A program made the position numbers and the translations under genes. The notes under the pieces were generated by a model. That model was not told the origin of the DNA. It searched no databases and worked only from the letters and a program-made list of their open reading frames with translations. Below, in pieces: positions 5,955 to 38,552 of a stretch of DNA of 64,000 nt. The stretch's first letter is position 1; each line of letters opens with the position of its first letter. Origin of the DNA: Vermamoeba vermiformis (Eukaryota); contig JBEWZL010000075.1 of assembly GCA_045837725.1 (NCBI GenBank), forward strand, positions 1-64,000. The letters run 5' to 3'.

Positions 5955-8610
5955 TTAAAGCAAAATCTCGTCGATAAAGTCACCTGAGAGCTCCTTATGA
6001 GGCATAACAATACAATTGCGAACAATAATCTCAGATCCAGCAGCAACTCCGAAGCCTAAGGAAACTTGGGTTAGCATTGCAATACACAAAGCCCTCAAAC
6101 TCTAAAACTATGCAATAATTTCGTAGAATTTATCGAGACCCTGCGCAAAATTCTTACCAAACACGGTAATTCCAGTGCGCGACTTCAAGTGCTCCATGCC
6201 ACCCGTGAATGGGTCGCCTGTATGTGTGCCTTCTAAACGAGTCCAGAATCCAACTGTAGACTCAGCGCTCAATATAGTGTACAAAATACAAGCGTGGTCC
6301 TGACAAAACACGAGATCAGCAAAAAGTTGCAGAGCGCGTGTTTGATGGCTTGTTTTACCTTAATAGTAACGTTGTTTAAGATAATCGAGTTGTGAATACG
6401 AACGCCCTTGCCGACTACAGTGTTAGGACCGATATAGACATTGGGACCAATCTGATGCAAACGAGTTTTTGTTAGATCAAGATCCGTTCATGAAAAACTT
6501 TTCGACTACCAACGTACCTTTGCTGTCGGATCGACTTTAGCGGTAGGATCGACGATAACCGGTCCTACAACTTCAAATTTAACGCTTGAAGGTCGAGTCA
6601 AATTCTCAGGAACTTTCTGCTCGAAGTATTTGAGATACTGGTAATTGCAGTACACGGCAGATCTAGTTTGCAATAACATTAGTATTAGGGTTGTATATTC
6701 ATCGATTCGCAGTATACTACTTACCCTGCGTTCTTAACACAACGCCAGAAGTCTTTGTACGAGTAAGCAAAGATTTCGCCCTTAGAAGCCAAGTACGGCA
6801 ACACATCTATTTCCATGCTCAAGTAATAAGGCTTATCGCCGAATGAGTGGCTAAAAACGAGACGTTAGCATATCAGTAGCGTATAATAACATTATTGCAA
6901 TCGTATGAAAGCAATTAAAGTTGTCCAGATCCAACGTCGCAAACTTCGGTAATCCGCCGCGAAATCACCGGTGATAAGAAAGAAAGAAATATTATTTGTG
7001 GTACCAAGCACGCGCGACTGTGGACAAAATCGAAATATCTTTAAATCTTGCGGAAAATTGAAAGTAAATTTAGGGATCAGAGAGCTGCGACAGAATTAGC
7101 TGAGTTTTCCAGCAGTAAAGTTGTTCCGGTTGACAGCTTTCGACATAGCTCTTGGGTGTGCAATTACATAGCAAATACGACGATAATATAAGTTCACGTA
7201 AGGCAGATCCGATCCGTTACAAAATTTTCAAAAAGCAGATGTACCGCATAAACTCCGAAAATAAATTTGTAATTTCATCGATTATCCTCAAACAAAACGA
7301 AGATATTTATAAGATTAATCTCGAAATCAAATAAGCGCTACTTACCCGGACATTGTAAGCGTGTCCTCGAACAAATCCATCTTTGAAGGAGTTCGCTTGA
7401 CCGGCTGATGGAATACTGCGCAATCGAATACGTAGACTCCAGCATTGATAGTGTTAGAAATGAATTCTTCGGGCTTTTCGACGTAATGGAGCATCTTATT
7501 CGTCTTTTCGTCTGGATAATAAAAGTTCGGGTTAGATCTGCCTTAAAATATGCCTCATTTGCTAAAGTATAAAGACATGTGGAGATATATCATGAATTTC
7601 CTATAAGAATAATCCCGTTTATATTAGCCGAGTTAAATATGAAAGTTGCTCGAGTTAGTTTCTAAAACTCGATTGTATTCGCTTGGCTTACGATTATTAG
7701 GGATATCTATTGCTAATGATCTATATTATGCGCTATTATCATGATAAGATGCTGATAAATTACTTGCTAAGTCAAGGTACATCCGTTACAAAAATTTGAG
7801 CTTCGAGATACTAAGGTCTTATACTATTCTATATATGACTCATTACCTGCTACATAGCATCCAAAACTCTTAGCAATGTCGTTGGGCACAGTAGTTCCCA
7901 TCATTGTAGCGAGCTGGCCGTGACCACGATGGAACTCCAAGATCTCCTTCAAAGGGAATGTGCAGCAGATGTCTGAGTGCAAGACGATCAAATGACGAGT
8001 ATTAGGTCCTTCGAACTTCTCTTTAAAATAGACTAAGCCTCCTGCAGTACCCATCGGATGTGTTTCGCGCAGGTAACTGTTCGAAAAACAGTAAAAATTA
8101 ATTATGATGCTGTAATAAATATAAAAATATCGTAATATATCTTCGTATTGCGTTAAATTATGAAACCTTATTAAATAAACAAATGAAATATTTCCGACGT
8201 GGCATCCAAACTTGTTTTAAGGACGCGTATCTTTTAAATTAACAAAAATAAGTAATATAATAATTTTAATATTAAATTTGAGCATAAATAAATGCTGAAA
8301 ACAATTGTAATTATTTTTCTAACGGATCCTGAAATAATCAAAATAATTGAAATTACCTGACTGGAAAATTGAACTTCGTGGACATATCCTTTGCATAGTC
8401 ATCGAAATATTTTTCTTCAAATGATCCTAATATCACGACCTCCTCTAATTTCTCCAATTGCTGACAAGCACGGATGTGATGCGTGATCATCGGCGAACCT
8501 CCCACGGGGAACAATGGTTTGGGCACATGAAGTGATAGTGGTCTGAATCTCGTCGCGCGCTTCTCACCGCCGACTAAGATGATGACTTTAATGCCTTGTC
8601 GTTCAGCCAT
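5955..8610 (-). CDS. GMPPA: Mannose-1-phosphate guanylyltransferase alpha-type subunit, multi-exon
   Basis: IILVGGEKRATRFRPLSLHVPKPLFPVGG, MGTAGGL, SDICCTFPL, and C-terminal hexapeptide repeats (IGPNVYIGPNTVVGKGVRI) ending EILL*. Confidence 0.88.
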
Positions 8611-8847
8611 TTGTAACGTATTTGGAATGTTTTGAAAAACGGACTCAATTCATAAACGACACCAAGGCTAATAACCTCTAATATTCGTACTTGATGCACT
8701 TTATAGGACGTGCCTTTAACATTTATGGATTGATTATCGTGAAGTTATCAATGGTACGGATCTTTTGACTTTATTTTTTGTTCGTTCAAAAGATCTGCAA
8801 CACAACTTGTATTTTATGTATAATTCTGTATAATAGCATATACCACT

Positions 8848-11068
8848 ATGAATAGATTCATACCTGCGACGTCATCGTCGCTATTAGTCAAGCATATTCC
8901 GGTAGTCCTTTCAGATGGAGCGCTGCAAGAATTTTTTCAGCATTTTGGCGCCAAAGAAATTCAATTAATGAAGGGAAAGATGGTACGATAATAATAACGA
9001 CTTCTACTACGAGCATTCAATTGCTAGAAGGTCCTGTAAATTTTAAATGATTTTTTGTCGGATCCGGATCTTTTGTTTGACCTTCACGATCGCTAATTAC
9101 TTATACAATAGCATGGCACTGCTCTTTTAAAATTTAATGAACCAAATGCAGCACGAAAAGCTCTTAGCGATCTGAACAACTTGAAACTGTTAAACAAACA
9201 ACTCGTAGTCGACTTTGCAGAGGAAGAAAAACCGTAAGAAATAATTAACTATATTCTCATAACAATAATATTGCATTACCTATAGCATAAGTACTCGATT
9301 GAACCAAATTAACGTTTAGTTCTTTCCTCGTTTGTTGACACTCGTGGATCAGCTTAACTACCAACTATTTTATTGCTACTCATATTTATATTGACTTTGT
9401 TATTGTTATAGAGCCAAAAAATCAATTGTTGAGTCAGTACCTGCATCATCTAACGAACAACAAGCAAAACAAACCGAGATCGGCTTTCCAATCGCGAAAA
9501 ACTTAGGGTACGCAATACTATACTAACAAATACTCTAAATATAGCCATATTCATTAATATTTCTATTTTTAGCATTGACTGGCCGTCACCACCATATTTG
9601 GAATACAGCTATCCACCGCCAAGCCGCGACATTGCCGAGAATATAGTTCGTCTATTATTCCACGTGCCTAAATTCTACGAACAAGTGCTGCATTTGATGA
9701 ACAAAATGAATTTGCCGCCACCATTTGGACCTGCTTTTCCTATGGCTAATCGCGTAAAGAAAAACGTACGTAACAAAAGGAAGCTTAAAATTAACTCTTT
9801 ATTTCGCTCAAATACGTAGCTTATTTAACGATATACTAAATTAAGATTCAGTTTTTTTGTCGACAAGATCCGCTACAAAAAAAAACCATTTTTAACTAGT
9901 TTTATTTTAGTTGGATCCGACGAGAAAAAGAAAGAGAACCCCAGAAAATTTAAATAATACAGTAGAAGAGTTCGAATCGGAGTCGAGTGAGTCAGATCTG
10001 GATGAAGACGAACAAAATAGGGACAAAAAACGAGCGAGAAAGACGAGTGAAGCAGAGCAAGAAGAAGGTGCTAGACACATTCCTATTGACCAACAACCAC
10101 CAGTATCGAGTATATTAGGCCCTTCTATTCGCGCCCAAGGCACCGCCAAGCCGTTACAAATTAATTTGAAGACCACGTCAGTCACGCAACTTCAGCCACC
10201 ACTCGCCAACACACCAATGATGCAACAAGGCCCTGGACGGCCGATAATGGCCACAGGTCCCGGCCCTAACTATATGATACCTAATATGGGTCATATGCCT
10301 CCCAACATGATGGGCCAGTTCAATCCGTACATGCCGCCCAACACCGGATCCAACATGCAAATCGAGTATATTCAAGGACAAGGTATGTATTTAAACTATA
10401 TTAACCATGTTTTCTATATGAAATATCAGTATTAATATGTACTATCAGCAACACCTGGTCAAGTTGTCGGAGCGGATGTGCGCAACGTTATTACTTTGCA
10501 ACAATTAATGGCCAACAGACAAACTGTGGATGGTAAATCCATTTTATATACATTCGTATATTAGTATGTATTTACGTTTCCGTATTATATAGAGATCAGA
10601 ATGATGGAGAAGTTCAAAAATTATGCACCAGGAGAACCGTCAGAAAAACTTTTTGTTCGAAATCTCGAGAAACGTGTGACAGTTGAAGATTTGAAGTTCA
10701 TATTTGGACGATATATACCTGCTGATGACGATATGGATAAGTAAGCCTGCCTTAGTATTTAATTGGATCTAACGGATCCATGTGGATCTGAGAAACTATT
10801 CGCAACTTTAGTCATGATATTCCCGACTTATATATTATATTATAGGGAACTAGATATCAAGCTAATGACTACAGGCCGGTTAAAAGGCCAAGCATTTGTC
10901 ACCTTCACGAACATTCAACGCGCACAACAAGCACTCAACGAAGTCAACGGTTACGTGCTGTATGACAGGCCACTCGTTATAGTAAGTTACAATACGATAC
11001 TAGTATACCTTATTTGAATATATATCTCATCGTAAAATGTGCAGGAATTTGGTCGTAAGAAAGAATAA
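8848..11068 (+). CDS. RNPC3: U11/U12 snRNP 65 kDa protein (two RRMs), multi-exon
   Basis: N-terminal RRM (LLVKHIP...FFQHFGA), the family block YSYPPP...PKFYEQVLHLMNKMNLPPPF, and a C-terminal RRM (NYAPGEPSEKLFVRNL...GRLKGQAFVTF...EFGRKKE*). Confidence 0.9.
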
Positions 11069-11103
11069 GGTGCATATTGGATCTGATCTCGAAGCCAATA
11101 AAA

Positions 11104-11182
11104 GTATCCTTTTAAGGAGATATAATACGAGTATTACTATAGACTATGCGCTTGGCTGTCCTTAACTCTTATTACGTAATAG
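11104..11182 (+). promoter_or_regulatory. Putative U12-type GT-AG intron / U11-U12 binding element in the RNPC3 3' UTR, abutting AATAAA (11097-11102)
   Basis: 5' splice site GTATCCTTTT at 11104, branch point TCCTTAAC at 11159-11166, TAG ending at 11182. Confidence 0.7.
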
Positions 11183-11341
11183 CAGATGACACGACAAGAG
11201 CGGCCAAGTGTCAAACTGAAGTGTCAAAAAGAGGTTGATCGGAGGTGATTGGCACTAGTTTATTTGACACTTATATACAGTGTGTACGCACAAGCGAGGA
11301 GGAGGAGCATAAGAAAGTCAGAAACAACGAGCAACTTTTTG

Positions 11342-12870
11342 CTACTTGTGCTCTTCCACAGTGTTGTTGTAGGGCTTCTTGTTCACGGATTTGATCACAC
11401 CGACAGCCACTGTTAGCCTCATGTCACGCACTGCAAATAGGCCCAAAGGAGCGAATTCAGTGAACGCTTCAACGACCATTGGCCTTATGGGCTCCAAGCG
11501 GACCAAGGCCGAGTCACCCTTCTTGAGCACTTTGACGTTGGGTGCAGACTCGATCTCTTTGCCAGTGCGCTTGTCGAACTTGGCCAACAGCTCTGAGAAC
11601 TTGCAGGCCACATGACTGGTGTGACATTCGATTACAGGTGTGTAGCCTTCACGGATCTCACCAGGGTGGTTGATGATGACTGCAAAGATAGATTATTAGT
11701 GCACTGCAAATAGTAAGTGTCACATATTATTATTGATGCTTACTGATTTGGGCCACAAAGTCAATGACTTGAGCGGGAGGCTCGTTCTTGGCGTGACCAA
11801 TCACAGAACCACGACGCAAATCTTTCACTGAAAGGCCACGCACATTGATGCCGATGTTGTCACCAGGAGTGGCCTCAGTGACTGATTGGTGGTGCATTTC
11901 AATGGTCTTGACTTCGCTGGTCAAGTTGCCAGGTGCCACCAAGATCTGGTCGTTGATCTTGAGCACACCAGTCTCGACGCGTCCAATGAGCACTGTGCCG
12001 ATACCACCAATCTCGAACACGGCTTGCACTGGGATACGCAATGGAAGGTCTTTGGGACGCTTGGGCTTCTTCAAGGCATCGAGTGCTTCCAAGAGCGTGG
12101 GACCCTTGTACCAGGGCAACTTGTCGGACTTCTTGAGCAAGTTGTCACCGGTCCAGCCACTCACTGGCATGAAGGTAATCATCTCGGGCTTGATCTAACA
12201 TAGAATGCAGTACTTGACACCAGGAAAATTGACACGTGTCATCAAACATTTTTTGAAACGAATGACCTACCCAACCTTGCCCAAGTAAGCGGAGATCTCA
12301 CGCTTGACCTCTTCGTAGCGCTCTTGGCTGTAGTTGGTGGTGGTCGAGTCCATCTTGTTGATCAACACGAGCATTTGTCTGATGCCCAAAGTGTACGCCA
12401 ACAGTGCGTGCTCACGAGTCTGGCCTTGCTCGGAGATACCTGCCTCGAACTCTCCCTTGGCAGAAGACACGACCAACAAAGCAACATCGGCTTGCGCATC
12501 AATCATGTTCTTAACCACGTTGTTGCGATATTGACTAGGGTCGGAGAATTGCTTGTTTGATCGCTCCAATTTTTGCCATCATCCCTAGGCCTGTACTGTC
12601 TATAGAAACCTTGCCCAAGCTACGAGTCTTTTCGATTGTTTATTCTTTTGTTTTTTTTATTTTTTTGCTTTATTTCTAAGCATCTTACTACTCTAATGCC
12701 AAGATGTTCTCTTGTATTATATTTTGATCCAGCAAAGAGTTTGATTCTAAGAACCTACCCATCATACGCTGGTCGATACAGCCAAACAGTACATCAAATG
12801 ACCTACGATGGTTGATTTGCCACAGTCGACGTGACAAGAACGGCGAGGTAACGCACGGCGATTTTATCCG
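11342..12870 (-). pseudogene. Translation elongation factor 1-alpha paralogue with a frameshifted and deleted G domain
   Basis: Domains II and III are open and recognisable (GRVETG, PGDNIG, FAVRDM). The 5' part has apparent 1-nt frameshifts around (G)HVDCGKST and FGCIDQR, and lacks ERERGITI and DAPGH. The 5' end is approximate. Confidence 0.75.
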
Positions 12871-13147
12871 ATTTAATTTTACTATTCTATAGGCCGATGG
12901 TGCTCGTTCGCTACGGAGAGCATTGTATGTCAATCACGAATAAATACAGAATAATCATGGTCGAAACTTCCGTTTTTGTTGGGTAATTGAGAAATCAAGC
13001 CGAAATCACCCCCTGAGATTAGAGACCTCAGCAATTCAGTGCAAACTTGGAGAAAAACTTGAACACGCTGTTCACAGAATCCACTTAATTTTCGCCACTT
13101 GACAACACAAGCCAGCATAAATAACGCCTATATTCTAACAATTAAAA

Positions 13148-14571
13148 ATGACCACATCTCTCGTTGTCTATGATTACAACTACGAACAAGTCGTGCCAGA
13201 TGCGACCAAACCTTTCAGACCAGCTATTATCACTCCAGGTAATTATAATAAATTTTCGGCGCATATTTATGCAATTCTATGTCACTATAAGGTCAAACAT
13301 CAACGGGGATCTAATTAATTTATTTTTAGGTGATGAAGTCGTTTGGGGTGAAAGAAATAACGACAACCAGCGATGGTTATTACAATATCCTTATTAAATA
13401 TTTGATATTTCTTATTTTTGGATCATTTAAAATTATTCAAGACTGCCGATCGAATCCACTAGAAGGTCAACTGACTTATGAAATTCCATACGATAGAAGG
13501 TTCCTTAACGACCTAAAATACATATTTATATCAACAAGGTGTCGCCTGCGATGTCGCTATTAGTGTCCCCGATGATATTGATGTCATAGCTCAATGGGTC
13601 AAAATGACGAAAGTACGTTCAAACAAAAGATCCGGAAATAGATCTGACCTTCAATATCATATTTAGGACGCAGGATACTATCCTATATTCGTAGTTGGAG
13701 GTCTAGGAGGTACTCACGATGATTGCACGCGTGAAGGTGTTGCGAAGGCGTTGGGTCGGGATCTAGTCCAACACGAAGGCTGTAACTTGATCTTATCGCA
13801 TAAATATGGAGAACAAGGATATACTACTGAGAGAAGGCGTATGGCTATGTTAGCTCACGGCGCAGGATTGATTAAGGTACGTCTTATAACCAATACAATA
13901 CTTCGCCAAAACCATCCTGAGCGCGGATCCATGAAACTCAAAAATACACGTGCAATAATTATGAGTACATGATTTAGCTGTTTAATACATCATAATAGTT
14001 GGTATATGTGTGCCGTATCAATCTGACGTTGTTTTTCAGAATCCTATTGGTGCCCCAGGATTTTTCATTGATGGTGTCTTTGCGTTACCGGGCTTTCCTT
14101 CAATGAACCGACCAATGTTCCAAGAGCTCATTAACATGTACGTAAAGGGACCCATATGCATACACTATCAAACTGTGTCGTATTGAATCCATTACATCAG
14201 AAATTTTGTTATCGAAACTAGGCTAGATCCAGCAATTTTTTTCGGCGTAGATAAGATCCTAGTTATTAACTATATATTTTACCAGATTAATGCCAGCTTC
14301 TTTGAAATCAGAGTTATTGATTAAAGAATACACCTTGCCTGTAGGCGAAGCAGTTATCGCGACTGAAATGGAAGAGTTTTATACCAAATATCCGGGCGTG
14401 AAGATTGGACTTTATCCGAGCAACGAGAAGTTTGGAAAAGAAGTTTTAGTGCGCTTTAGATGCAGAAAGAACGATACGCAGACATTAGCGGATTTTGAAG
14501 CCTTAATGGTCAACCTTAGTAATAGAATAGGCACCAACACTACTGTAGTCAAAGTTGATACGCTTGTTTGA
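13148..14571 (+). CDS. CinA/molybdopterin-binding-domain protein (FAD hydrolase-like), multi-exon with an AT-AC intron
   Basis: IITPGDEVVWGE...N..WL...VPDDID, VGGLGGTHDDCTREGVAKA, NPIGAPGFFIDGVFALPGFP. The frame stays open only if 13385-13521 is spliced out. Confidence 0.85.
13385..13521 (+). other. U12-type AT-AC intron
   Basis: 5' ATATCCTT, branch point TTCCTTAAC at 13501-13509, terminal AC at 13520-13521. Removal restores the reading ...WLLQYLYQQGVACDVAISVPDD. Confidence 0.93.
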
Positions 14572-17880: not shown

Positions 17881-19545
<1,665 letters not shown>

Positions 19546-33670: not shown

Positions 33671-36600
33671 TTATTTGACTCTATTAACAAAAAAGTTGAT
33701 GCATGTCACGTGATAGAGCTCATCCTGTTGCATCCAATGACACGTTCGCGAGTCATACGCATTGACACGTGTCATACATAAACGGCAGAATCGCTCGCTA
33801 TTCGGTGCGTGTAGCTCATCATCCGCGGACAATTTTTCACCAGGGACCACAATCTATTCAGTGAATATGCATTAGATCAATAAGACCTTCATAAGCACCA
33901 GTCAATACGTACTTGATCGAGGCCAAGGGACTTTGCCTTCTCGCACAAACTCTTCCATTTGTGCGGAGTTTGATCGATCAAAAATGGCAATGAAGCGGCC
34001 ATAGGACTCGCCATAGTGTTGTACTTGTTGGTGTCCTTGGCAATCGTGCGAAGTATGCGCGAGATGACGGTGTAGATCTGATTCAAGGCTGCAAAGTAAG
34101 TCTTGATCTTTTCAGTCTTCATCACCTTGTTCAGAATGTCGAGTTCTTTGGCGGCTTCGTGCTGCTTGTTGACATTTTCCAGGAACTCTGTCGCACGACT
34201 GAACTCCTCGTTAGCTTTCTCAAGACTTTGTTGCCATCTAGCATAGATTAGTTATTGAAAAAGCTCAAAAATGACACGTGTCAAACTTACTTGTAGACGT
34301 CACCAGCAGTGACCGTAGGTTGCTTGACTTGAACTTTAGGCTCTTCAGTACTGCTAGTTTTCTCGCTCGTCTCAAGTCCAAGGGAGAATGATGCTGTTGT
34401 TGAGGAGGTCTTAGGACCCTCGAAGAATAAATGAGCTGACAGCTGCGAAGAGGAGCTGAACGGCAATTCAACGCGTGGCACTGACGGACTCGACTTTGGT
34501 GCCTCTTCAACAGGTGCTGCCGGCGTTTCTTCGGTCTTAGGTGCAGTCGGGTCGTAAAACGCGAGGAAAGTGCTCTTGGTGAGGGGTTCAGGCTTGGCTG
34601 TCCTGAAGTCAGAGAACTCAAATTCATCGCCAAAAGTGCCGTTCGCTTTCTTCTCCGTGCTTCCGTTCAAGCTCTCCGGAAGAGGGATCGGTGCTTGTGA
34701 CGAGAAAATGTCCAGCAAACTCTTTGGTGGCGGTTGTGCGCTGTCATTTGGTGAGGCTTTGGGCAGTTCCATCAGCAATGACGAGTCACCTTTCTTTGCA
34801 GCAGCAGTGGGTGGATTGGATGGCGTGTTGGAACCGTTGAAGGAGCCAAAGAAATCATCGGCCCCAGCTGAGGACTTCAAATTGCCAGTGTTTGATGGAC
34901 CAGGAATTGTGCCCATAATTGTCGAGCCTCGCTTTGAGCCCGCTCCTTCTTTGACAGCCGTTGTCTTAGTACCATTAGCTGCACCTGTAGTCGCAGCAGT
35001 TTTAGCTGCTGGCACACCTCTTGTGGGCAATGTCGGGGTCTTGGAAATGGTTGGTGTGGACTTGGTGCCGAGTGGTGCCTTGGGCTGTTGTTTGGTTGAC
35101 TGTTGCTTGGTTGGCTGTTGCTTGGTTGGCTGTTGCTTGGTGGTTTGTTGCTTTGTGGTGGCTGTTGTCTTGCTTGACGAGGGACCAATGCCTTGCATCA
35201 CCTTCTTACCACTCGCGGGGGCTGGGGCTTGTGTCTTGCTCGGCTCAGCAGGAATCTTGCCCATGATCACTGTACCACGCTTTGGGTGTGGTCCATCACG
35301 TGGGACCGTGTGCGAAGGTGACTGAGGCGATACTAATCGCGGGGACTCGCCAGACTTCTTCAAGCCGATTATACTCGCGAACAGATCTTCAGTGACTTGC
35401 AAGCCCTTAGTTGATGTGCCCGAAGCAGCTTGTTGAGTAGGAGGACTCGTGTTCGTCGAAGGAATTGAAATGTCGGTCATTGTCGGCCCTGTAGGGAAGT
35501 CCCAGTCTTCAACAGTCGTTGGAGTCACTGCAGCTGGTGTCATTTGAGGCGGGAACATGGGCGTGAGAGGCAACATGACAGGTGTCAATCCAACACCCGT
35601 GGGAAGTGGCTGTGGAGTTGTGCCTGCTGAAACAAAATCGCCCATGTCCTCGTCATCAAACGTCAGCTCTGTCTTTGCTGCCACGGGCGTGGGAGTCTGT
35701 AGTGTGGCTTGTTGCTCGGGCTTGTTATTCTGCGCATCAATCACTTGATACAACAAGTTCATCGAGTCATTCAACATTTCTTCAAGCTGCACGGGCTTAT
35801 CAGATTGAGGCTTCTTCTGCGACTTAATCGACTCGTAGATCGAGAAAAGACTGGATCCAACCGGCGTTGTGCTTGCAGCTTCTACAGGTGTCGAAGGTGT
35901 CAAAGAAACGACAGGTGTCAACGTGGGGGTTGGGAGCGGTGAGTCTTGAGAGCCGGGTGTCAAATTCAATGACACTGTAGCCGTCGCTAATGGCGTTGAC
36001 AATGAGATATTCGGTGATTCTCCTCCGTTGACCTGCAATGTACCAAGAGGCGTAGTTACGTCCAAAGGAACACTCTCGCCAAATCCTGTTGGAGTTGACG
36101 TAGCTGGAACAGAGGGCAATTGGAAACTGGAAAAGAACGAGTCTGCAAGAGCTTGAATATTCAGTGGCATGTCGGTTGATGTATTGGCAACGGATATGGC
36201 AGGCACGGAAGGTGTGAGGCTTTGACTGCTCGATGCGGAGGAAGTGTCATTTGTGCTAAACGGAGAGCTCTGTGGTGATTCCTGAGCCAACATTGTCAGA
36301 GGGTTGTGCGGCTTGAACATTGAGGCATCGCTCTGCGGTGCCATGGTGACAGGTGTCAATGAGCCAGAACTGACAGGAGTATGTGGCTGCTCTGGCATTG
36401 TGAAACCAGCGTGAGGACTTGCATTGTCGGTATGCGACTGATTGTTTGGCATTGAAGGTGATTGGTTAACGGCAGGTTGTTCAATCGGCTTCGAGGCAAT
36501 GGTGTTGACAGCGTTGAGCTCCATCACTGGTGTGACAGGCGTGATTGAAGTCATGACAAGCATAGAAGTAGCCACAGAGGTGTTAGTATGGACAGCAGCT

Positions 36601-38552
36601 TGGTCTGGAGTTGAGGCAGCAGGAGTAGAAATCGCTGCTTGAAACGCGTCCTCGAGTGAAACGTTGTTGTGAGAAGGCGTGAGTGAAGGAGCAGGAGTGA
36701 CTGGAATGTCAACAGGGGAAGTCAACATGACAGGCATTGTCGATGTAGTCAACGGCATGCTTTGTACAACTTCAGAAGTGTGCGGGGCCAACGTAGGAAA
36801 CGAGTTCGTTTGCATTGGGCTATTCGTTGGTGGTGTGTTGCTGGATTGCTGTTTACCAAGTTCAGTGAAAAAATTGTCAAGTCCTTGATTGCTCGTGGGT
36901 GCATTTGTCGGTGTAGTCGTGGGAGCATTCATGGCAGCGAGGACATTTGAAACATTGAACGCCTCGAACTTATCTTTCGAGCTCGTCCTCTTCGCTGCAT
37001 TTGTGTCGTTAGTGTTGAGCGGGCTCGACTCCACTGATTGCGTTGGCGTGACTTTTGTCGATGTTGTCAATTTGACCATGGATGGCGGGATATTTCCAAC
37101 AGATCCACGGCGACTGTGACTGCCACTCGAAGTTTCATTCGATTTGTTCGTGCTGGTAGGCGTCTCGACGACTGCTTGGCCGAAAGGCGAGGGCTTGGGT
37201 TGTTCGGGTTGAAGAGGCATCGCAAAGGGTGACGTCGTCGGTGTAGTAGGAGATATGGTATTGAAGACATTAGTTGGAGGTGTACTTGCGGGGAAATTGA
37301 AGTTTGTAGGTGTTGAGGTGTTAGTCGTAGGAGTTGTTGGTACGCCAGACAAATTCGCGAAGAACTGATCCGCGACCGATTGAATGTTGGTACTGGTGCT
37401 AGGTGTACTGCCAATGTTGCTAAATGGCGTTGTATTGGCTGGTTGAGGGTTTGTATTGAAGTGCTGAGGCATTGTCGTGGGTGTTGGCTCTGGCTTGGTT
37501 GTTTGGAAAGTCGTGGCTGACGCGAAAAAGTCATCGTCATCACCCGATGCTGAAGGTTGAGTATTGATAGGTGTCATCATCGGCATTGTACTCGGCATTG
37601 TGGGTGTTAAGGTTGGTATCATAGGTGTAACGGGTGTTATGGTATGTGGTACTGGGTTAGTTGTTTGTGTCACAGGCGTTGGATTGGCGTTGTTCGGTAG
37701 ACCTCCGAGGGACGCAAAGAACTGACTAGCCAAGTCTTGTATCTCAGCTGGTGATTGCGTGCTCGTGTTTGGCATTTGTGGTGGTGTATTCATGGGCTGT
37801 GGCGTCATCGGTTGAGGTGCCATGTTGAACCCTCCACCGTTCTGCATAAAGAAAGTATTTTGGGGTGGCATCATGATATTCGTGGCAGGGGTGGGGTTGG
37901 TATATGTAGGCATAGTATTGTTAACGGCTATTGAATCAATGGCTGAACCCAACAAGTCGTCAAGTGGCTCGTTCATCATTTGTTTGACACTCTTTTTCTA
38001 TATACAATAATTTAGTATAAATATTTAAATAGTATAAATATTGAGTGACGTACTTCTAGAGCGGATCCCAATGCAGGTTGAGTCTGAGTATAATTTGGTT
38101 GATTAAAAAATCCGTTTTGATTGCCTGGCGTCATCGTCATTGGTTGTGTCATCATCATGGGAGCCTGTTGAAATCCTTGCTGCATAAACATTTGATTTTG
38201 CATCATTGGATCCACCTGCATCATTGGAAAACCAAAGTTCATTTGCGTAGGCTGCATCCCATTCCCGATCGTCCCATTTTGTTGCGGAGCTGAATTTTTA
38301 ATTATTATATGAAGAAGTCGTGAAAATAAATAAAATTACACGTTAAATCAAGTTAAATATATGGTAGGAAAAGTAAATAATAATTTCAATCACGAAATTA
38401 ATAAATTAGCCAGATCAAAGTTTGTCTATTTGACACAACCCTTTAAATGCAAAATTATCGGCTAAACATGCGTATATATCATTATACTTACTGCCATTAA
38501 ACTGCCCTTGCATAGGCAGCCCAAATCCGTTATTTCCATAATAGTAGGCCAT
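33671..38552 (-). CDS. Synergin-gamma-like AP-1/clathrin accessory protein with a ~3.7-kb low-complexity exon
   Basis: C-terminal WQQSLEKA...YFAALNQIY...CRLC...YHVTCINFFVNRV* resembles the synergin-gamma C-terminus. Acidic-Phe motifs DMGDFVSA and FEFSDF match GAE-binding motifs. Confidence 0.7.

What the first reader, a model, noticed from the sequence alone, without database searches (positions are those of the whole stretch)
11097..11182. Complete U12-type intron signals glued to the poly(A) signal of the minor-spliceosome gene RNPC3: candidate autoregulatory switch
Seen: 28 nt after the RNPC3 stop (11068) lies AATAAA (11097-11102). One base later is a perfect minor 5' splice site, GTATCCTTTT (11104), then a minor branch point TCCTTAAC (11159-11166) and TAG (11182), forming a 79-nt U12-type intron. 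All coding introns I read in this gene are U2-type. Known: RNPC3/65K bridges U11 and U12 snRNPs, and animal 65K mRNA is feedback-regulated through U11-binding tandem 5' splice sites (USSE) in its 3' UTR. Inference: a differently built circuit in which U11/U12 binding or splicing competes with cleavage, since the cleavage site would fall inside the intron. 65K mRNA 3'-end choice would then read out minor-spliceosome abundance.
Basis: partly seen in the sequence, partly recalled or inferred. Interest (0 to 1): 0.85.

Follow-up and report, generated by a model that had tools for sequence, protein, structure and literature searches.

The report
Minor-intron signals behind RNPC3 poly(A) signal
Right behind the gene for a core protein of the rare "minor" splicing machine sits a full set of the signals that this machine recognises, touching the signal that normally ends the message, so the gene may sense the level of its own machine, but no RNA data or related genome yet shows that it does.

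Summary
The RNPC3/65K stop is at 11066-68 and AATAAA at 11097-11102. One base later comes GTATCCTTTT (11104-13), then TCCTTAAC (11159-66) and TAG/CAG (11180-85).

These are the only U12-like 5' splice site and branch motifs in the gene region 8600-11345. Such a pair is expected 0.0275 times per 64 kb; two are seen. The other pair is an AT-AC intron at 13385-13521, spliced in 4 of 4 laid runs, so the organism has working minor splicing.

Function is not shown:
- No read or contig joins 11103 to 11183/11186.
- The one near-identical RNA-derived contig runs to G11104 and stops.
- Nothing covers 11105-11367, but RNPC3 depth is only about 4-8.
- The one syntenic relative, L001, keeps the AT-AC intron but has no U12 motif behind RNPC3.

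Best reading (0.35): a lineage-specific U11/U12 sensor competing with 3'-end cleavage. It is a new variant of the known USSE feedback on 65K, not a USSE. A neutral or bypassed young intron is nearly as likely (0.3).

The parts
8848..11068 (+). RNPC3 (U11/U12-65K) coding region in nine exons. Approximate exons: 8848-8982, 9112-9233, 9412-9512, 9573-9765, 9911-10375, 10448-10531, 10593-10742, 10847-10981, 11045-11068. All eight introns are U2-type GT..AG.
   Evidence: Sequence reading and ORF table. Exon 4 hits named RNPC3/65K proteins. RRM_1 matches in exons 2 and 8. P0023 aligns to 9664-11065. The X1 contig skips 10532-10591.
11066..11068 (+). RNPC3 stop codon TAA
   Evidence: The relative P0023 ends at the same residues, EFGRKKE.
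11097..11102 (+). AATAAA, the presumed poly(A) signal of RNPC3. It is the only one on the + strand between 9907 and 12938.
   Evidence: AATAAA is modestly enriched in the window (107 seen, 83.7 expected, 0 of 100 shuffles reach 107). Its use as a signal is inferred, not mapped.
11104..11113 (+). U12-type 5' splice site consensus GTATCCTTTT (predicted U11 snRNA binding site)
   Evidence: It is the only such motif in 8600-11345.
11159..11166 (+). U12-type branch-point consensus TCCTTAAC (predicted U12 snRNA binding site), branch A at 11164 or 11165
11170..11181 (+). 12-nt perfect palindrome TATTACGTAATA between the branch point and the 3' AG
   Evidence: Self-hit on the opposite strand; sequence. 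Meaning unknown.
11180..11185 (+). Candidate 3' splice sites TAG (intron 11104-11182, 79 nt) and CAG (intron 11104-11185, 82 nt), 17 and 20 nt after branch A 11165
   Evidence: Use not shown: no joint was listed and depth in 11177-11287 was zero in 4 of 4 runs.
11206..11272 (.). Inverted repeat in the spacer: AAGTGTCAAA twice (11206-15, 11219-28) against TTTGACACTT (11263-72). It overlaps the AATAAA of the convergent gene.
   Evidence: Also the right-hand stem of the fold (whole fold z -1.34, not significant).
11259..11264 (-). AATAAA on the minus strand, presumed poly(A) signal of the convergent EF-1alpha-like gene, 77 nt after its stop
   Evidence: sequence.
11342..12578 (-). Convergent, highly expressed EF-1alpha-like gene (stop TAG at 11342-11344). 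A read-through RNPC3 transcript would run antisense to it.
   Evidence: ORFs. Hits named elongation factor 1-alpha. Depth is tens to about 200 in X11-X13, against under 2 for RNPC3.

Best explanation
**What it is.** The 11104-11185 stretch is a genuine recognition unit for the U11/U12 di-snRNP: a U12-type 5' splice site, branch point and AG. It arose in this lineage in the 3' flank of RNPC3.

**How it most likely works.** It acts as a negative-feedback sensor for the particle that the 65K protein holds together.
- The 5' splice site starts one base after the only AATAAA, and the branch point lies 55 nt further on. A bound di-snRNP would therefore sit on the zone where cleavage and its downstream element are expected (about 11112-11160).
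- When U11/U12 is scarce, the message is cleaved and polyadenylated just behind AATAAA and is productive.
- When U11/U12 is plentiful, it binds the nascent RNA, and perhaps splices 11104-11182/5. This blocks or bypasses cleavage.
- The transcript then runs on with no further AATAAA for about 1.8 kb, antisense into the strongly expressed EF-1alpha-like gene, and is lost.

**Shown:** the motifs, their placement, their non-randomness, the gene identity, and working U12 splicing in this organism.

**Inferred:** U11/U12 binding here, use of AATAAA, the competition, and the fate of read-through RNA.
For: - **Motifs.** Perfect 5' splice site and branch-point consensus at an intron-like spacing of 55 nt, and the only such motifs in the gene region.
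- **Chance.** A pair is expected 0.0275 times per 64 kb, about 6e-5 for this spacer.
- **Uniqueness.** It is the only one of 136 RTATCCT sites, in the window plus 80 loci, with both an upstream poly(A)-type hexamer and a downstream branch motif.
- **Working machinery.** The minor spliceosome works here: the AT-AC joint 13384->13522 is seen in 4 of 4 runs.
- **Poly(A) signals.** There is one AATAAA per strand in the 273-nt spacer, and the next on the + strand is at 12939. In L001 the two convergent genes also carry AATAAA and, read from the sequence, ATTAAA behind their stops.
- **RNA.** In X1, 90% of the laid RNPC3 coding bases and 11069-11104 are covered, but 0 of the 263 bases 11105-11367 (my arithmetic, tables 2 and 8). 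This fits a short 3' UTR as the main form.
- **Precedent for the gene.** 65K mRNA in animals and plants is controlled by U11 bound to U12 5' splice sites in its 3' UTR, together with cleavage and polyadenylation signals (PMC5473595 abstract and passages; PMC3584512 passages).
[quoted passage not shown] For both I saw only titles in the reference list of PMC5473595.
Against: - **No splicing seen.** No junction 11103->11183/11186 appears in any of 4 runs. Depth in 11177-11287 is zero in all four. The only contig over the site includes G11104, so it is not spliced there.
- **Weak power of that test.** X1 depth is 3.8-8.4 with a 39-nt hole inside exon 7. X11-X13 are a 90-95% alike relative with under 2x on RNPC3. 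28 joints were not shown.
- **Not conserved.** L001 has third-codon identity of 58-77% in RNPC3 exons. Its RNPC3-EF1A spacer is 199 nt and has no U12 motif. The neighbouring AT-AC intron is kept there with both motifs.
- **Branch distance.** The branch-to-AG distance is 17 or 20 nt, against an optimum of 11-13.
- **Unmapped basics.** The poly(A) site is not mapped and AATAAA use in this organism is only inferred.
- **Timing.** If cleavage is fast and lies upstream of the branch point, the branch point and AG never meet the mature message.
Confidence: 0.35

Rival explanations
1. A real but regulation-free U12 signal set. It would be a young 3'-UTR minor intron, or one bypassed since an AATAAA arose in front of it. 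It is spliced or ignored with no effect on 65K level, and is turning over neutrally.
For: - It is absent from the only readable relative, L001, while the coding-region AT-AC intron next door is conserved.
- The spacer is 74 nt longer than in L001 (273 against 199 nt). That is close to the 79-nt intron and is compatible with a recent gain.
- The branch-to-AG distance is sub-optimal (PMC3584512 passage).
- X1 cover stops at 11104, so the branch point and AG may lie outside the mature mRNA.
Against: - Landing by neutral gain in the 3' flank of one of the few minor-spliceosome-specific genes, one base from its poly(A) hexamer, is a large coincidence.
- It is the very gene whose 3' UTR carries U11 sites in animals and plants.
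- Both motifs are perfect consensus, which is not expected of a decaying relic.
- No copy of the element occurs elsewhere in the window or the 80 loci, so there is no sign of a mobile 'introner'.
Confidence: 0.3
2. A feedback element that works by another route than poly(A)-site competition. One option is a U11 site kept at the very 3' end of the message that holds it in the nucleus, as U11 does for the long human 65K isoform. Another is a USSE-like enhancer that helps define the 59-nt last exon and its weak upstream U2-type 3' splice site. A third is a spliced 3'-UTR intron that marks the mRNA for decay.
For: - U11 binding is required for nuclear retention of long-3'UTR 65K mRNA in human cells (PMC5473595 abstract).
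- If cleavage falls 10-30 nt after AATAAA, GTATCCTTTT stays in the mRNA.
- The last U2-type 3' splice site (11044/11045) lies 59 nt upstream of the U12 5' splice site. It has the poorest pyrimidine tract of the eight introns.
Against: - There is a single 5' splice site, not a tandem one.
- There is no alternative pyrimidine-tract-AG between the stop and the element.
- L001 has the same weak last 3' splice site without any U12 element.
- The junction would lie 35 nt after the stop, which is under the roughly 50-nt rule for decay known from animals (recalled).
- No spliced form was seen.
Confidence: 0.2
3. A chance co-occurrence of short motifs with no binding of U11/U12.
For: - Each motif alone is at background frequency in the window.
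- 4 of 6 RTATCCTT sites are evidently chance.
Against: - The joint expectation is 0.0275 per window and about 6e-5 for this spacer.
- The 5' splice site match extends to 10 bases.
- The order, strand and spacing are those of an intron of this genome's size class.
- The other such pair in the window is a proven intron.
Confidence: 0.07

Closest known systems
[quoted passage not shown] Verbeeren et al. 2010 was not held and is known to me only through citing texts. I read the abstract and passages of PMC5473595, and passages of PMC3584512 and PMC8329584.
   Same: - U12-type 5' splice site consensus in non-coding RNA behind the 65K coding region.
- Predicted U11 binding.
- The logic of a spliceosome component sensing its own particle.
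- In human cells the outcome also depends on cleavage and polyadenylation signals.
   Different: - A USSE is a tandem pair of 5' splice sites that are not used as donors and that activate an upstream alternative U2-type 3' splice site.
- Here there is one 5' splice site, with a consensus branch point and AG behind it (a complete intron). There is no alternative upstream 3' splice site, and the element touches AATAAA.
- The organism is neither animal nor plant.
- A textbook tandem USSE, for contrast, lies behind an RNPC3 homologue in L031, L032 and L060.
Suppression of a poly(A) site by an snRNP bound at a nearby 5' splice site. Examples are the HIV-1 5' LTR site silenced by the downstream major donor, U1 inhibition of cleavage, and the conserved U1 site in human 65K. 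I saw the titles in the reference list and passages of PMC5473595.
   Same: A 5' splice site close to a poly(A) signal. The predicted result is less cleavage and more read-through when the snRNP is bound.
   Different: - The snRNP would be U11/U12, not U1.
- The site is 1 nt from the hexamer.
- A branch point is present, so the whole di-snRNP could clamp the cleavage zone.
- None of this has been tested.
Minor-intron-coupled isoform switches: the SRSF10 minor intron against a poly(A) signal in exon 3, and the Drosophila Urp decay-targeting U12 intron (passages of PMC8329584 and PMC3584512).
   Same: Splicing by the minor spliceosome competes with another processing choice, so the output tracks minor-spliceosome activity.
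   Different: Those introns lie in coding or exon-skipping contexts. Here the intron lies wholly behind the stop codon and overlaps the 3'-end processing zone of a di-snRNP component's own gene.

Membership tests
U12-type (minor) intron, GT-AG subtype | 5' splice site consensus RTATCCTT at the first intron base | tested here: met
   GTATCCTTTT at 11104-11113.
U12-type (minor) intron, GT-AG subtype | Branch-point consensus TCCTTRAY | tested here: met
   TCCTTAAC at 11159-11166.
U12-type (minor) intron, GT-AG subtype | Short branch-to-3' splice site distance (optimum 11-13 nt; PMC3584512 passage) | tested here: inconclusive
   17 nt to TAG and 20 nt to CAG from A11165. The proven AT-AC intron at 13385-13521 has 13 nt.
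U12-type (minor) intron, GT-AG subtype | The host has a working minor spliceosome | tested here: met
   AT..AC joint 13384->13522 in 4 of 4 runs. The RNPC3 gene itself is present.
U12-type (minor) intron, GT-AG subtype | The intron is removed from RNA | tested here: inconclusive
   No joint was listed and depth in 11177-11287 was zero in 4 of 4 runs. However, RNPC3 depth was only 3.8-8.4 in X1 and under 2 in X11-X13, and 28 joints were not shown.
[quoted passage not shown] | Lies in a non-coding part of RNPC3 or SNRNP48 | tested here: met
   36 nt after the RNPC3 stop.
[quoted passage not shown] | Tandem repeat of U12-type 5' splice sites | tested here: not met
   One site only in 8600-11345. 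Compare the tandem pair 27 nt apart in L031, L032 and L060.
[quoted passage not shown] | Activates an alternative U2-type 3' splice site a short way upstream (25-50 nt; this figure is recalled from Niemela et al. 2015, which was not held) | tested here: not met
   There is no pyrimidine-tract-AG between the stop and the element. The only upstream 3' splice site is the constitutive one, 59 nt away.
[quoted passage not shown] | Conserved among related species | tested here: not met
   Absent from L001:1-1965, the only relative with a readable 3' flank.
snRNP-mediated poly(A)-site suppression | A 5' splice site within reach of the poly(A) signal | tested here: met
   1 nt separates AATAAA from GTATCC.
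snRNP-mediated poly(A)-site suppression | snRNP binding lowers cleavage at that site | not testable with these tools
   Needs 3'-end mapping under U11/U12 perturbation.

The most novel reading that the evidence does not exclude
The U11/U12 di-snRNP, held together by the 65K protein, clamps its own subunit's pre-mRNA. U11 binds one base behind AAUAAA and U12 binds 55 nt further on. Together they veto cleavage and polyadenylation. This would be a telescripting-like control run by the minor spliceosome. It would have been invented independently of the tandem USSE, in a protist lineage outside animals and plants. It would read out the assembled di-snRNP rather than U11 alone.
Probability: 0.25. 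Interest if true: 0.8.

Novelty: new variant of a known kind. Interest (0 to 1): 0.55.

Why it matters
[quoted passage not shown] The 2021 review PMC8329584 (passage) calls SNRNP48 and RNPC3 the only known cases of regulatory cooperation between the two spliceosomes.

A second, differently built U12-signal element behind RNPC3 in a third eukaryotic lineage would matter in three ways:
- It would show that selection repeatedly wires this gene to its own particle.
- It would give a first functional case for a minor intron in a UTR. [quoted passage not shown]
- It would open the question of whether U11/U12 can police poly(A) sites as U1 does.

If the element is instead neutral, it is a rare snapshot of minor-intron gain or loss in a UTR.

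Tried and rejected
- **RNA holders.** No RNA holder was listed for 9900-11340. All 10 holders had small shares (0.05-0.12) and 3 raw RNA runs were added by species label.
- **Laid reads.** X11-X13 turned out to be a relative (most reads 90-95% alike) with almost no RNPC3 cover. X1 is near-identical but thin.
- **Whole genome.** None is held, so U11/U12 snRNA genes, other minor-spliceosome genes (such as 48K) and a genome-wide U12 census could not be examined.
- **Rfam.** At gathering scores it finds only a 5S rRNA in the window.
- **Earlier notes of this scan.** Nothing on this genome, on look-alikes, or on RNPC3, 65K or USSE.
- **P0023.** This close cDNA-like relative sits on a 2538-nt contig that should run about 1.6 kb past the stop. 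It was not among the 80 loci returned and its DNA could not be reached.
- **Survey behind RNPC3 homologues.** I used 71 of the 80 loci. I dropped 9 whose match does not reach the C-terminal RRM: L065, L069-L072, L074, L075, L078, L079. Of the 71, 69 have at least 100 nt downstream. RTATCCT occurs 13 times on the sense strand in 8 loci and 5 times on the antisense strand in 5 loci. Only the L031, L032 and L060 tandem looks like a USSE, and none resembles the window's arrangement.
- **Mobile-element idea.** No second copy of 11069-11340 occurs in the window or the loci.
- **RNA structure.** The fold of 11069-11290 is not unusual (z -1.34, 20 of 200 shuffles as good).
- **Literature.** Searches found no paper describing a complete U12 intron at the RNPC3 poly(A) signal or a USSE in amoebae. 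In one search none of the 10 listed papers held the USSE phrase.
- **Papers not seen.** Verbeeren 2010 and Niemela 2015 were not held. I opened no supplements. The species tables of those two papers and the intron tables of PMC10639083 could list such a case.

Full report
**1. Is it there?**

Yes. One search shows the last coding exon of a plus-strand gene (11045-11068, EFGRKKE) ending in TAA at 11066-68. After 28 nt comes AATAAA (11097-11102), then one A. GTATCCTTTT follows at 11104-13, TCCTTAAC at 11159-66, TAG at 11180-82 and CAG at 11183-85. The implied intron is 79 nt, or 82 nt with CAG.

The gene is RNPC3 (U11/U12-65K):
- Its exon 4 (9574-9765) found 136 proteins at E<=0.001 among 149 candidates. 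The named ones are RNPC3, RNA-binding protein 40 or the U11/U12 65 kDa protein.
- Exons 2 and 8 match Pfam RRM_1.
- A spliced, cDNA-like relative (P0023, 315 aa) is colinear over exons 4-9 and ends at the same EFGRKKE.

The eight coding introns start GTACGA, GTAAGA, GTACGC, GTACGT, GTATGT, GTAAAT, GTAAGC and GTAAGT. No other U12-like 5' splice site or branch motif occurs in 8600-11345.

**2. Is it more than chance?**

Each motif alone is at background. RTATCCTT occurs 6 times against 4.07 expected, and 25 of 100 shuffles reach 6. TCCTTAAC occurs 2 times against 1.71 expected.

The ordered pair on one strand within 30-300 nt is another matter. It is expected 0.0275 times per 64-kb window (2000 order-0 random windows), and two are seen.

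The second pair (ATATCCTT at 13385, TCCTTAAC at 13502) is an AT-AC intron in a FAD-synthase-like gene (Pfam MoCF_biosynth and FLAD1_M). Reads or contigs of all 4 laid runs skip it exactly (13384->13522, ends AT..AC). The organism therefore has working minor splicing, and this motif pair predicts it well.

The other four RTATCCTT sites have no branch motif. Scaling the pair rate to the 273-nt spacer behind RNPC3 gives about 6e-5. Among 136 RTATCCT sites in the window and 80 fetched loci, only 11104 has both an A[AT]TAAA within 40 nt upstream and a branch motif downstream.

**3. Surroundings**

RNPC3 converges on a strongly expressed EF-1alpha-like gene on the minus strand (stop at 11342-44). 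Its depth in the RNA runs is tens to about 200, against under 2 for RNPC3.

The 273-nt spacer holds exactly one AATAAA per strand: plus at 11097 and minus at 11259-64. The next AATAAA on the plus strand is at 12939.

If each gene is cleaved 10-30 nt behind its hexamer, the branch point and AG lie in the roughly 100 nt between the two 3' ends. This spacing rule is general knowledge and was not tested here. A transcript that passes the first site has no canonical signal before it has crossed the whole EF-1alpha-like gene in antisense.

The spacer also holds an inverted repeat (11206-28 against 11263-72). A 12-nt palindrome lies just before the AG. The fold as a whole is unremarkable (z -1.34).

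**4. RNA evidence**

No RNA holder of the stretch was listed.

X11-X13 proved to be a relative: most reads are 90-95% alike, and RNPC3 depth is under 2. They say nothing about the UTR.

X1 is near-identical, with 1 and 2 differences in pieces of 85 and 135 bases. Its contigs skip introns, so it holds RNA. From tables 2 and 8 I worked out the following:
- Its 245-nt contig covers the end of exon 7, then exon 8, then 11045-11104, and stops there.
- It therefore includes G11104, the first intron base, and is not spliced at that point.
- About 90% of the laid RNPC3 coding bases are covered, 36 of 36 bases of 11069-11104, and 0 of 263 bases of 11105-11367.

This mildly favours a short 3' UTR ending near the AATAAA and speaks against a constitutively spliced long UTR. 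The test is weak, however. Depth is only 3.8-8.4, there is a 39-nt hole inside exon 7, contigs drop rare forms, and 28 joints were not displayed. Splicing is neither shown nor excluded.

**5. Relatives**

A scan of metagenome contigs with P0023 gave 115 relatives, of which 80 were kept.

L001 is a genomic contig of a related species:
- It has the same exon structure. Exon 8 is 100% identical in protein and 84% in DNA, with third-position identity of 58-77% across exons.
- It has the same synteny: RNPC3, then the EF-1alpha-like gene on the opposite strand, then the FAD-synthase-like gene.
- Its AT-AC intron keeps both U12 motifs and even a 15-nt identical internal block.
- Its RNPC3 flank has no U12 motif at all in 1-1965.
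- Its AATAAA lies 105 nt after the stop.
- Its spacer is 199 nt, which is 74 nt shorter than in the window.

L002 ends inside exon 8. The contig that encodes P0023 was not returned.

The element is therefore lineage-specific: gained here or lost there.

I also surveyed the flank behind other RNPC3 homologues. Of 71 loci used (9 of the 80 were dropped because the match does not reach the C-terminal RRM), 69 have at least 100 nt downstream. Only L031, L032 and L060 (one sequence context) carry a textbook tandem USSE, with ATATCCTTTT and GTATCCTTTT 27 nt apart. None has the window's layout.

**6. What is known**

I read the abstract and passages of PMC5473595, and passages of PMC3584512, PMC8329584 and PMC10639083. 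They say the following:
- The 48K and 65K mRNAs are feedback-controlled by a USSE. This is a tandem pair of U12 5' splice sites that bind U11, are not used as donors, and activate an upstream U2-type 3' splice site.
- For human 65K the choice also depends on a U1 site and on cleavage and polyadenylation signals. U11 binding retains the long isoform in the nucleus.
- The USSE is reported from animals and plants.
[quoted passage not shown]"

Searches found no description of a complete U12 intron at the RNPC3 poly(A) signal, nor of a USSE in amoebae. Verbeeren 2010 and Niemela 2015 were not held, and I opened no supplements. Their species tables could bear on the novelty claim.

**7. Reading**

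The motif set is very probably a real U11/U12 recognition unit (about 0.9). It fails two defining features of a USSE: it is not tandem, and it has no alternative upstream 3' splice site. It should therefore not be filed as one. It may still work like one, as a sensor of the particle that 65K builds.

The placement is one base behind the only AATAAA, with the branch point 55 nt on. This makes competition with 3'-end cleavage the most economical mechanism. Read-through into an antisense, signal-free stretch would be the non-productive outcome (0.35).

Feedback by another route (retention, exon definition or decay) gets 0.2. A neutral or bypassed young intron gets 0.3, because of L001 and the long branch-to-AG distance. 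Pure chance gets 0.07.

**8. Organism**

It is unidentified. The nearest named hits of the EF-1alpha-like protein are a Physarum transcript (64%) and Balamuthia (61%). The top RNPC3 hits are unnamed. 'Amoeba' is a weak guess.

**9. Verdict**

It is a new variant of a known kind, with moderate interest until RNA 3'-end and junction data or closer relatives are read.

Noticed in passing
window 13385-13521 (+); L001 4220-4340: AT-AC U12-type intron (ATATCCTTAT ... TTCCTTAAC, then 13 nt to AC) in a FAD-synthase-like gene. It is spliced in 4 of 4 laid runs. L001 keeps it with both motifs and a 15-nt identical block inside the intron (CGAATCCACTAGAAG).
   Followed up: partly
L031 2617-2680 (same in L032 3293-, L060 3168-): Textbook tandem USSE about 330 nt behind an RNPC3 homologue of an unidentified organism. 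A pyrimidine-tract-AG lies about 34 nt upstream. A branch-point-like CCTTAAC lies only 8 nt behind the second 5' splice site.
   Followed up: partly
window 11206-11272: AAGTGTCAAA occurs twice in tandem and its exact complement lies 34-47 nt on. They sit between the two convergent genes and overlap the minus-strand AATAAA. This may be a hairpin tied to 3'-end formation of the EF-1alpha-like gene.
   Followed up: no
window 11170-11181: Perfect 12-nt palindrome TATTACGTAATA between the U12 branch point and the candidate AG. It could shorten the effective branch-to-AG distance if it folds.
   Followed up: no
window 11342-12578 (-): The highly expressed EF-1alpha-like gene is unusually divergent: 55-64% identity to named EF-1alpha proteins over a 154-aa exon, and 88% to one unnamed metatranscriptome protein.
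   Followed up: partly
window 18577-18695 (-): A 5S rRNA gene (Rfam RF00001, 104.7 bits) standing alone among protein genes.
   Followed up: no
window 34001-38000: A 4-kb block with GC 0.49-0.51 (elsewhere in the window 0.35-0.51, mostly about 0.40), strong positive GC skew (0.13-0.30) and negative AT skew. It is compositionally unlike most of the window.
   Followed up: no
window 8353-8649 (-): Judging by its sequence only, the gene upstream of RNPC3 on the opposite strand looks like a nucleotidyl-transferase of the mannose-1-phosphate guanylyltransferase type. The two genes would be divergently arranged about 200 nt apart.
   Followed up: no
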